A DNA stretch of 23,535 nt from a virus (taxonomy: Duplodnaviria; Heunggongvirae; Uroviricota; Caudoviricetes): positions 1-23,535 of IMG/VR virus record IMGVR_UViG_2859799533_000003. One strand, 5' to 3'. Below, piece after piece: positions 15,175-15,446 of this stretch. A program made the translations under genes and the position numbers. The stretch's first letter is position 1. Every line of letters starts with the position of its first letter. The notes beneath the pieces were generated by a model. The model saw only the letters and a program-made list of their open reading frames with translations, was not told where the DNA came from and did not search any database.

Positions 15175-15446
15175 CAGGAAACTGTCGTTGCATGGATAAA
15201 GGGATGGAATCAAGAGTACTGGATAACGCCATTGCCAGCTTGCTGAGGGCAAAAATACAGAACCCGGTGTCAATAAGTTTTCCTTTTGACACCTCATTTT
15301 TTAACTGCTGTGTAACAGCCTGTTCTGCTGTCAGTTCCCATCTGGCAATAAGCAATTTTTCCTCATAGTCGTCTTCGCTATCGCCATCAGGCACATCGTT
15401 TTTACTTCTTCTCAGATACGATATGTAAAAATCGCGCCAGGCATCC
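15175..15446 (-). pseudogene. nu1: fragment of terminase small subunit (lambda Nu1-like), internal about 90 codons, inverted relative to E-H
   Basis: Minus-strand frame open across the whole inter-IS gap; ...DTGFCIFALSKLAMALSSTLDSIPLSMQRQFP matches recalled lambda Nu1 ETAFCTFVLSRIAGEIASILDGLPLSVQRRFP; cut by IS66 at 15174 and IS629 at 15447. Confidence 0.55.

What the first reader, a model, noticed from the sequence alone, without database searches (positions are those of the whole stretch)
15175..15446. Inverted terminase small-subunit (Nu1-like) fragment stranded between IS66 and IS629
The 272-bp gap between two IS elements is an open minus-strand frame whose translation (...FCIFALSKLAMALSSTLDSIPLSMQRQFP) matches the central and C-terminal region of lambda Nu1. 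It is in the opposite orientation to the capsid/tail genes E-H, which in lambdoid phages are co-directional with Nu1. This implies an IS-mediated inversion plus deletion, not simple insertions.
Basis: partly seen in the sequence, partly recalled or inferred. Interest (0 to 1): 0.5.

Follow-up and report, generated by a model that had tools for sequence, protein, structure and literature searches.

The report
Stranded terminase gene scrap between jumping genes
The 272-base piece is a dead internal fragment of a phage DNA-packaging gene (Nu1), cut out and flipped by insertion sequences in a decaying prophage of a probable Shigella boydii genome; it is a clearly traceable but ordinary case of prophage decay.

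Summary
Window 15175-15446 (minus strand) encodes residues 39-128 of a 169-aa lambdoid terminase small subunit. It matches Pfam Phage_Nu1 at E=1.5e-12, is 100% identical at protein level to phage PhiR12_1 Nu1, and is 46% identical to lambda Nu1 residues 86-141. It is the central part only: the N-terminal 38 and C-terminal 41 residues are missing.

It lies between an IS66-family element and IS629, and is inverted relative to both the Q-nanS block on its left and the E-H block on its right.

Sister genomes show how it arose:
- In Shigella boydii relatives, the same IS66 sits in a full-length Nu1 as a simple insertion. The window and the sisters each keep one half of its 8-bp target duplication (GTTTCCTG).
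- Other relatives carry a second, oppositely oriented IS66 inside the IS600 next to nanS, with an intact duplication (CAAAATAC).
- The window's IS66 combines one junction from each copy. That is the signature of recombination between inverted repeats, which flips the DNA between them.
- IS629 then joins Nu1 codon 38/39 to base 5 of gene E, with no target duplication. A-W-B-C-D, cos and the lysis genes are absent from the window.

This is ordinary IS-driven prophage decay and of low interest.

The parts
15175..15446 (-). Nu1 (terminase small subunit) pseudogene fragment: third base of codon 38, codons 39-128, and first base of codon 129 of a 169-codon gene.
   Evidence: Pfam PF07471 E=1.5e-12. 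100% protein identity to PhiR12_1 Nu1 residues 39-128. 98.9% nucleotide identity. Codon phase worked out.
15175..15182 (.). CAGGAAAC (GTTTCCTG in the Nu1 reading direction): one copy of the 8-bp target-site duplication made when IS66 inserted into Nu1.
   Evidence: In S. boydii sister locus L052 the other end of the IS66::ISSso6 composite is followed by GTTTCCTG and then ATTTAACACC..., which is the continuation of Nu1. Compared with the intact L018 sequence.
12672..15174 (-). Body of the IS66-family element (tnpA 14669-15088, tnpB 14322-14672, tnpC 12699-14291). Its first 5 bases (GTAAG) lie at 11150-11154, separated from the rest by ISSso6.
   Evidence: NCBIfam IS66 TnpA/TnpB/TnpC. 99.7% identity to a copy in E. 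coli FDAARGOS_943 that has an 8-bp duplication. Uninterrupted ends seen.
11150..11154 (-). Outermost 5 bases (GTAAG) of the tnpC-side terminal repeat of IS66, abutting the truncated IS600. This is the same junction (CAAAATAC|GTAAG) as in sister genomes L040 and L042.
11155..12671 (+). ISSso6 (IS110 family), nested in the IS66 terminal repeat and flanked by the dinucleotide AG on each side.
   Evidence: Annotated 'IS110-like element ISSso6 family transposase'. NCBIfam NF033542. L040 lacks it, and the two window matches overlap by 2 nt in L040.
10216..11149 (-). IS600 fragment (orfB side, 934 bp). It is cut by the IS66 insertion and itself interrupts the phage DUF1378 gene.
   Evidence: Annotation 'IS3-like element IS600 family transposase'. 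NCBIfam IS3 transposase. Junction sequences. DUF1378.
15447..16755 (+). IS629 (1309 bp). A 1-nt deletion in a G run at about 15674 truncates orfA to 72 codons. There is no target-site duplication (flanks ...TCC | GAT...).
   Evidence: Inverted repeats 15446-15471 and 16731-16756. Annotation 'IS3-like element IS629 family transposase'. Alignment to the CE10 copy and flank sequences.
16756..22873 (+). Head and tail genes E (from base 5; start codon lost), FI, FII, Z, U, V, G, T and a truncated H. 99.9% identical to S. boydii sister loci, in which E is intact and preceded by A-W-B-C-D.
666..10215 (+). Early and late regulatory part of the same type of lambdoid prophage: replication HTH protein, PerC, Dam, RusA, KilA-N, DUF968 (split), Q, methyltransferase (split), three tRNAs, DUF1737, nanS-type esterase, truncated DUF1378.
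   Evidence: Pfam. tRNAs. 95-97% identity and colinear with L018. 99.7% identity to L040 and L042.
1..662 (+). End of an IS911 copy bounding the remnant on the left. In the source genome yecN-cmoA-cmoB lie beyond it.
22874..23535 (-). Inverted IS911 copy that truncates H. In the source genome potB-potA-pepT lie beyond it. The same junction is present in the sister genomes.

Best explanation
The 272-bp piece is a non-functional scar: the middle of the Nu1 gene of a lambdoid prophage, left behind by three IS-driven steps.

Step 1 (shown). In a common ancestor with Shigella boydii serotype 18, an IS66-family element inserted into an intact Nu1 between codons 128 and 129. It pointed the same way as Nu1 and duplicated 8 bp (GTTTCCTG). 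In the sisters, and now in the window, this element carries ISSso6 in one terminal repeat.

Step 2 (inferred from junctions). A second IS66 copy sat in the opposite orientation inside an IS600 that interrupts the DUF1378 gene just downstream of nanS. Homologous recombination between these two inverted copies flipped the DNA between them. That placed Nu1(...128), now reversed, directly after the IS600/IS66 junction.

Step 3 (shown as an outcome; mechanism inferred). An IS629-associated event joined Nu1 codon 38/39 to base 5 of the capsid gene E. This was either recombination between two direct IS629 copies or an IS629-adjacent deletion. It removed from this locus the Nu1 N-terminus, cos, the lysis genes, the second IS66, the Nu1 C-terminus and A-W-B-C-D.

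The fragment lacks the start codon, N-terminal 38 residues (part of the DNA-binding region) and the C-terminal 41 residues, the region that in lambda binds the large subunit. There is no terminase large-subunit gene (A) in the window. It therefore does nothing in packaging.
For: Identity of the fragment.

Intact reference. In the E. coli SY033 prophage (L018) the three retained blocks are colinear and co-oriented (window 663-10215, 15175-15446 reversed, 16756-22873). The window lacks L018 9877-13819 and 14092-19835, and no trace of them is found in the window by blastn or tblastn.

Step 1:
- Sisters L051, L052 and L053 have IS66 tnpC, then ISSso6, then ...CCTTAC|GTTTCCTG ATTTAACACC... (the Nu1 C-terminus), then A-W-B-C-D-E.
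- The window has ...GTTTCCTG|GTAAGCG... at the other IS66 end.
- I predicted a protein made of Nu1(1-128) plus the IS66 read-through tail GKRKLTAVCSH. It exists exactly, as ACD07111.1 'terminase small subunit [Shigella boydii]', on 8 contigs including the 4,615,997-bp chromosome.
- The window composite is identical to the L052 copy over 3172 nt apart from one gap.

Step 2:
- Sisters L040 and L042 match window 1-11154 and 12672-15176 at 99.7-99.8% identity.
- They carry the IS66 in IS600 with a perfect CAAAATAC duplication on both sides.
- The window keeps only the left junction (CAAAATAC|GTAAG).
- With the phage blocks co-oriented, the two parental IS66 copies are inverted relative to each other.
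- At the two informative sites where both parents can be read (composite positions 930 and 1287), the window's tnpA-side half carries the Nu1-copy alleles, not the IS600-copy alleles. This fits a hybrid element.

Step 3:
- IS629 has unrelated flanks (TCC | GAT) and no duplication.
- In all sisters E is intact, preceded by D, with no IS629.
- The junctions and the 84-aa ORF occur in one contig only.

Background: recombination between inverted repeats gives inversions and between direct repeats gives deletions, and Shigella has very high rates of both (PMC8072062).
Against: - The reciprocal recombinant IS66 (rest of IS600 | IS66 | Nu1 129-...) and the DNA between the breakpoints could not be looked for in the rest of the source genome. 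Step 2 therefore rests on junction logic and two to four informative sites in a high-copy, nearly identical IS.
- The IS600-resident copy in L040 and L042 has no ISSso6, whereas the window's hybrid has it at that end. This needs an extra, site-specific ISSso6 insertion, or an unsampled ancestor that already had it.
- In L040 and L042 the far side of IS600 is followed by non-phage chromosomal genes, not lysis genes. The two parental loci may therefore not have been adjacent, and step 3 may have been a relocation rather than a deletion.
- That the two TSD halves flank one and the same IS66 copy in the sisters was not seen directly. The loci fetched stop inside tnpC.
Confidence: 0.8

Rival explanations
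1. The steps are the same, but the parental loci were far apart on the chromosome. The IS66 x IS66 event was a large chromosomal inversion, and the IS629 joint is a second large rearrangement. On this reading the 'missing' Nu1 N-terminus, cos, lysis genes and A-D block survive elsewhere in the genome next to other IS copies rather than being deleted.
For: - In sisters L040 and L042 the rest of IS600 is followed by non-phage genes (an ABC-transporter fragment, a CymA-type porin, a sugar ABC transporter) rather than lysis genes.
- The remnant's outer flanks in the source genome are yecN-cmoAB-torYZ-argS on one side and potB-potA-pepT on the other. These are distant from each other in E. coli K-12 (gene order from my own knowledge). 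Both flanks are bounded by IS911.
- Of 114 reconstructed inversions, 103 mapped to Shigella branches (PMC8072062).
Against: - An IS629 joint between direct repeats deletes the intervening DNA, and the final co-orientation of Q-nanS and E-H requires that topology. A large intervening chromosomal segment would probably be lethal to lose, which favours a short, prophage-only interval.
- Intact relatives such as L018 carry all three blocks within one 25-kb prophage.
Confidence: 0.15
2. The flip was made by two inverted IS629 copies, one in Nu1 at codon 38/39 and one at the start of E. These inverted the Nu1-D block, and IS66 later deleted most of it. This was my first working model.
For: - The IS629 left end faces the Nu1 fragment and the right end faces E. 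That is the orientation expected from such an inversion.
- There is no target duplication at IS629.
- IS629-like copies sit upstream of Nu1, in the same relative orientation, in CE10 and at least 13 other E. coli genomes.
Against: - The IS66|Nu1 junction is an ancestral insertion junction that carries half of a target duplication. It is not a deletion end-point.
- The other end of the same IS66 carries the junction of a different parental copy, the one in IS600. Only IS66 x IS66 exchange explains that.
- No sister genome has IS629 at either site.
Confidence: 0.03
3. The 84-codon ORF (GTG at 15394 to the stop at 15140) is expressed. It retains a central region of Nu1 that might mediate self-association and could act as a decoy interfering with the terminase of incoming lambdoid phages.
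For: - The frame is open.
- The retained residues are 100% identical to a functional allele.
Against: - No promoter-like site was found on either strand in 15000-15700.
- The native start codon and ribosome-binding context are gone.
- The ORF occurs in a single genome, so there is no sign of conservation or selection.
- Perfect protein identity is expected from a recent event. The neighbouring genes E, FII, U, V and H are all decaying.
Confidence: 0.02

Closest known systems
Phage lambda gpNu1 / Pfam PF07471 Phage_Nu1 (terminase small subunit of cos-packaging lambdoid phages)
   Same: Sequence homology is significant: 47.9 bits against Pfam, 46% identity to lambda residues 86-141, and 100% identity to residues 39-128 of the 169-aa allele found in PhiR12 phages and in 1156 of 5426 complete E. 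coli genomes.
   Different: Only 90 of 169 codons remain. There is no start codon, no residues 1-38 and no C-terminal 41 residues. No adjacent terminase large-subunit gene or cos region is present, and the orientation is opposite to the head genes.
IS-mediated prophage and genome decay in Shigella: recombination between IS copies giving inversions and deletions (Seferbekova et al. 2021, PMC8072062; Hawkey et al. 2020, PMC7373316)
   Same: The mechanism and the organism group are the same. Multi-copy IS elements (IS66 family, IS629, IS600, IS911, ISSso6) serve as recombination substrates. Inverted copies give an inversion and direct copies give a deletion.
   Different: Nothing in kind. This instance is unusually well resolved, because sister genomes keep both parental IS66 insertions with intact target duplications.
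Nu1-homologue remnants (noh genes) of E. coli K-12 cryptic prophages DLP12 and Qin (from my own knowledge; database names such as 'prophage Qin DNA packaging protein NU1 homolog' appear)
   Same: These are also leftover small-terminase genes in defective lambdoid prophages that can no longer package DNA.
   Different: As far as I recall, those genes keep their native position and orientation next to cos. This fragment is an internal piece, inverted, and bounded on both sides by IS ends.

Membership tests
Phage_Nu1 (PF07471), lambda-type terminase small subunit | Sequence match to the family model above the curated threshold | tested here: met
   47.9 bits against a gathering score of 30, E=1.5e-12, profile positions 62-142 of 164.
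Phage_Nu1 (PF07471), lambda-type terminase small subunit | Complete N-terminal region (the DNA-binding domain in lambda) and a start codon | tested here: not met
   The fragment starts at residue 39 of 169, and the IS629 end replaces the upstream sequence. A full N-terminus exists only in the sister protein ACD07111.1.
Phage_Nu1 (PF07471), lambda-type terminase small subunit | C-terminal segment (the part that interacts with the large subunit gpA in lambda; this role is from my own knowledge) | tested here: not met
   The fragment ends at residue 128 of 169 (lambda residue 141 of 181), at the IS66 repeat.
Phage_Nu1 (PF07471), lambda-type terminase small subunit | Gene lies next to, and in the same direction as, the terminase large-subunit gene A, downstream of cos | tested here: not met
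   No A, W, B, C or D and no lysis/cos-region sequence is found anywhere in the window. The fragment is on the opposite strand to E-H.
IS66 family insertion sequence | tnpA-tnpB-tnpC gene set and terminal repeats starting GTAAGCG | tested here: met
   NCBIfam IS66 TnpA, TnpB and TnpC. Ends GTAAGCGTAAACTG... and GTAAG[ISSso6]AGCGTCAACGG....
IS66 family insertion sequence | 8-bp target-site duplication flanking the element, as expected for a simple insertion | tested here: not met
   The window flanks are CAAAATAC and CAGGAAAC. The matching halves are found in sister genomes: CAAAATAC on both sides in L040, and GTTTCCTG at the other end in L052. The window copy is therefore a recombinant, not a fresh insertion.
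IS629 (IS3 family) | Terminal inverted repeats TGAACCGCCCC..., with orfA and orfB | tested here: met
   26-nt repeats, 92% complementary. Annotated as IS629 family. NCBIfam IS3 transposase for orfB. orfA is frameshifted by a 1-nt deletion.
IS629 (IS3 family) | Short (3-4 bp) target-site duplication, as expected for a simple insertion | tested here: not met
   The flanks are ...GGCATCC and GATTGTT..., with no shared 3-4 bp. The left flank is Nu1 codon 38/39 and the right flank is E base 5.
Inversion by homologous recombination between inverted IS copies | The recombinant IS carries one parental junction from each of two oppositely oriented copies | tested here: met
   The left junction equals that of the IS600-resident copy in L040 and L042. 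The right junction equals the Nu1-resident copy (protein ACD07111.1; TSD half in L052). The parental copies are inverted when the phage blocks are co-oriented.
Inversion by homologous recombination between inverted IS copies | The reciprocal recombinant IS is present at the other end of the inverted segment | not testable with these tools
   It is not in the window.

The most novel reading that the evidence does not exclude
The surviving 84-codon ORF, which keeps the central part of Nu1, is expressed from read-through transcription and acts as a dominant-negative decoy against the terminase of superinfecting lambdoid phages. On this reading a decay product has been co-opted as a defence.
Probability: 0.02. 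Interest if true: 0.45.

Novelty: already known. Interest (0 to 1): 0.1.

Why it matters
It matters little beyond annotation. The piece should be labelled as a terminase small-subunit pseudogene fragment. The prophage remnant should be marked as unable to package DNA, since cos, Nu1 and A-D are all absent from this locus.

Its modest value is as a clean worked example. Sister Shigella boydii genomes preserve both parental IS66 insertions with their target duplications, so an IS x IS inversion followed by an IS629-bounded loss can be read directly from junction sequences. That is useful for teaching, or for benchmarking tools that reconstruct IS-mediated rearrangements.

Tried and rejected
- **First working model.** Two inverted IS629 copies flip Nu1-D and IS66 then deletes. 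I rejected this once the sisters showed that the IS66|Nu1 junction is an ancestral insertion junction and that the IS66 is a two-parent hybrid.
- **Different-prophage origin.** The DA33133 prophage (E-H 99.7% identical) carries a different Nu1 allele, which suggested the fragment might come from another prophage. A synthetic colinear query then found 43 genomes, including the SY033 prophage, with all three blocks in one prophage. Mosaicism therefore does not argue for a foreign origin.
- **CE10-type IS629 upstream of Nu1**. The orientation is the same but the site is different (275 bp upstream of the Nu1 start) and the copy is 98.8% identical. It is not the same insertion.
- **E. coli 118UI IS629 and pINV IS600/ISSso6 arrangements**. 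These are unrelated junctions.
- **Exact-junction scans.** GTDB genome representatives, metagenome contigs and viral contigs gave no matches.
- **Draft contigs that start at the E start codon** (L023-L025). They begin with native sequence (GGATTG or ATTG), not the IS629 junction, so they are uninformative.
- **Look-up of the multi-copy TnpC** to find the reciprocal junction. It returned other genomes only.
- **Literature search for the accession CP026866** found nothing.
- **Promoter scan** around the fragment found no sites.

Full report
**What is at the coordinates.** The interval 15175-15446 is bounded exactly by two IS ends. On the left is the terminal repeat of an IS66-family element (…ACGCTTAC, ending at 15174). 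On the right is the left repeat of IS629 (TGAACCGCCCCGGG…, starting at 15447). The minus-strand frame through the interval is open. It translates to QDAWRDFYISYLRR…FCIFALSKLAMALSSTLDSIPLSMQRQFP and then runs 11 more codons into the IS66 repeat.

**The fragment is Nu1.**
- It matches Pfam Phage_Nu1 (PF07471) at E=1.5e-12 and 47.9 bits (cut-off 30), covering profile positions 62-142 of 164.
- It is 98.9% identical in DNA to the annotated Nu1 gene of phage PhiR12_1 and its relatives.
- It is 100% identical in protein to residues 39-128 of that 169-aa protein.
- It is 46% identical to lambda Nu1 residues 86-141 of 181.
- The same allele occurs in 1156 of 5426 complete E. coli genomes.
- The three nucleotide differences from an intact allele are all third-codon-position changes.

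The only error is that the piece is the centre of the protein, not its C-terminus: 38 N-terminal and 41 C-terminal residues are missing.

**Map of the window.**
- 1-662: IS911 end.
- 666-10215 (+): lambdoid early and late regulatory genes. These are an HTH replication protein, PerC, Dam, RusA, KilA-N, a split DUF968, Q, a split methyltransferase, three tRNAs, DUF1737, a nanS-type esterase and a truncated DUF1378.
- 10216-11149 (-): the orfB part of IS600.
- 11150-15174 (-): an IS66-family element with ISSso6 (11155-12671) nested in its tnpC-side repeat.
- 15175-15446 (-): the Nu1 fragment.
- 15447-16755 (+): IS629, with orfA frameshifted.
- 16756-22873 (+): E from base 5, then FI, FII, Z, U, V, G, T and a truncated H.
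- 22874-23535: an inverted IS911 copy.

This map rests. The Nu1 fragment is inverted relative to both phage blocks. No trace of A, W, B, C, D, the lysis genes or the rest of Nu1 is present anywhere in the window.

**Comparison with an intact relative.** I built a synthetic query joining the left block, the re-inverted Nu1 piece and the right block. It found 43 E. coli genomes that hold at least 80% of it in one place. In the SY033 prophage (L018) the three blocks are colinear and co-oriented, at 95-97%, 98.9% and 99.5% identity. Relative to L018 the window lacks positions 9877-13819 (3.9 kb: the rest of DUF1378, DUF826, holin, lysis genes, the region upstream of Nu1, and Nu1 codons 1-38). It also lacks 14092-19835 (5.7 kb: Nu1 codons 129-169, A, W, B, C, D and the first 4 bases of E).

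**No target duplication at either IS.** The IS629 flanks are …TCC and GAT…. The flanks of the IS66 composite are CAAAATAC and CAGGAAAC. Elsewhere the same composite is a normal insertion with an 8-bp duplication, GATTAAAA in gpJ of E. coli FDAARGOS_943.

**Source and sister genomes.** The 84-aa ORF occurs in a single contig, NCBI CP026866.1 (4.68 Mb). None of the 5426 complete E. coli genomes, the GTDB representatives or the metagenome and viral contigs scanned contains the junctions. Look-ups with lineage-specific proteins from the window found sister genomes of two kinds.

(a) L040 and L042 (CP026797.1) match window 1-11154 and 12672-15176 at 99.7-99.8% identity.
- They show the same yecN-IS911-prophage-nanS-DUF1378'-IS600 arrangement.
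- Their IS66 lies inside IS600, flanked on both sides by CAAAATAC, and is followed by the rest of IS600. This is a simple insertion, without ISSso6.

(b) L033/L051 (CP026762.1), L034, L052 (CP001063.1) and L053 match window 16756-23535 at 99.9% identity.
- The match includes the same nonsense codon in H, the same H'-IS911 junction and the same potB-potA-pepT flank.
- There, E is intact and preceded by D, C, B, W and A, with no IS629.
- Immediately upstream of A lie ISSso6 and IS66 tnpC.

In L052 the ISSso6-bearing end of the IS66 composite is followed by GTTTCCTG and then ATTTAACACC…, the continuation of Nu1 from codon 129. The window has the same 8 bp, GTTTCCTG, abutting the other (tnpA-side) end of IS66. 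These are the two halves of one target-site duplication.

**A prediction that held.** If the ancestor had a simple IS66 insertion in a full-length Nu1, the sisters should encode Nu1(1-128) fused to the IS66 read-through tail GKRKLTAVCSH. That exact 139-aa sequence is in the database as ACD07111.1, 'terminase small subunit [Shigella boydii]' (UniRef: S. boydii serotype 18). It occurs on 8 contigs, including one of 4,615,997 bp, which is the length of CP001063.1. The source genome is therefore very probably S. boydii (inference).

**Mechanism.** With the phage blocks co-oriented, the IS600-resident IS66 points one way (tnpC on the minus strand). The Nu1-resident IS66 points the other way (tnpC on the plus strand). 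The window's IS66 has the IS600-side junction of the first copy and the Nu1-side junction of the second. This is the product expected from homologous recombination between inverted repeats, which inverts the intervening DNA. It explains why Nu1(…128) now reads backwards straight after IS600'-IS66.

Sequence polymorphisms agree as far as they go. At the sites where both parental copies can be read (composite positions 930 and 1287), the window's tnpA-side half has the Nu1-copy alleles. The tnpC-side 1.2 kb has no informative sites. The window composite is identical to the L052 copy over 3172 nt apart from one gap.

The presence of ISSso6 at the IS600-side end needs one additional event, or an unsampled ancestor that already had it. 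This is plausible because ISSso6 occupies exactly this position in many IS66 copies.

The IS629 joint (Nu1 codon 38/39 to E base 5) is private to this genome and has no duplication. Given the final co-orientation of the two phage blocks, it is best read as a deletion. This could be recombination between two direct IS629 copies or an IS629-adjacent deletion. It removed the inverted lysis/cos/Nu1-N segment, the reciprocal IS66, Nu1-C and A-D.

The general rule that inverted repeats give inversions and direct repeats give deletions, and the very high rearrangement rate of Shigella, are documented in PMC8072062.

**What is not shown.** I could not search the rest of CP026866.1. The reciprocal hybrid IS66, and the fate of the missing DNA (destroyed or relocated), are therefore unknown. 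In L040 and L042 the far end of IS600 abuts non-phage genes. The remnant's outer flanks (yecN… and potB…) are not neighbours in K-12 (my own knowledge). Larger-scale rearrangements have clearly affected this region, and the two parental loci may not have been adjacent at the time. I also did not directly see both halves of the GTTTCCTG duplication around a single IS66 copy in one sister.

**Function.** There is none for packaging. The fragment has no start codon, lacks the first 38 and last 41 residues, has no partner large subunit nearby, and has no promoter-like site around it. The neighbouring genes are decaying further. Four indels relative to the sisters coincide with shortened FII, U and V gene calls, and E has lost its start codon.

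**Verdict.** The refinement is that the flip came from IS66 x IS66 recombination, and that IS629 marks the loss. This is a textbook type of IS-driven prophage decay in Shigella. Novelty is nil and interest is low.

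Noticed in passing
window 11150-12684; also L002, L003, L007, L009, L011, L012, L051-L053: ISSso6 (IS110 family; NCBIfam calls the family 'RNA-guided transposase') always sits at the same position inside the IS66 terminal repeat. The repeat GTAAGCGTCAACGG becomes GTA-AG-[GCAGTATGAC…GTCATATC]-AG-CGTCAACGG, with AG on both sides. In L009 both repeats of one IS66 copy are occupied. In L002 the IS66::ISSso6 composite moved as a unit, with an 8-bp duplication. This looks like site-specific targeting of IS66 ends. I found no paper in the library describing it.
   Followed up: partly
window 1-662 and 22874-23535; source genome flanks in L027 and L021: The whole 22.2-kb prophage remnant is bracketed by inverted, nearly identical IS911 copies. 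Outside them lie argS-cutC-torYZ-cmoBA-yecN on one side and potB-potA-pepT on the other. These regions are far apart in E. coli K-12 (from memory), so both ends of the remnant are themselves IS-bounded rearrangement joints. Both junctions are shared with the sister S. boydii genomes.
   Followed up: partly
window 15674 (IS629 orfA): This IS629 copy has a 1-nt deletion in a G run relative to the CE10 copy. It shortens orfA to 72 codons, so the copy is probably unable to transpose on its own.
   Followed up: yes
window 4180-5175, 6136-7185, 18207-18449, 19100-20260, 21124-22947: Many genes in the remnant are broken. DUF968 and the DNA methyltransferase are each split in two. FII, U and V are frameshifted; these are private to this genome, as four indels relative to the sisters. 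H carries a nonsense codon shared with the sisters. potA just outside the window is also split in this genome only.
   Followed up: partly
L006 12661-13970 (E. coli CE10) and hits H6-H19: An IS629-like element lies 275 bp upstream of the Nu1 start, reading away from Nu1, in CE10 and at least 13 other complete E. coli genomes. This could be a recurrent or inherited insertion near the cos region of this prophage type.
   Followed up: partly
protein P0006 (173 aa, from an NCBI contig of 4.71 Mb): Another genome has the same Nu1 allele interrupted after about residue 121 by what reads as an IS629 end (…DSIPL-NRPGFPGE…). This is an independent IS629 hit in the same gene.
   Followed up: no
window 7235-7484 and 7485-7986: The late region has the tRNA-Met/Arg/Arg cluster followed by the nanS-type esterase, as in Stx-converting phages. 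Only about 500 bp separates them, with no room for stxAB. The closest E. coli matches that cover the most of this block do carry Stx2 there.
   Followed up: no
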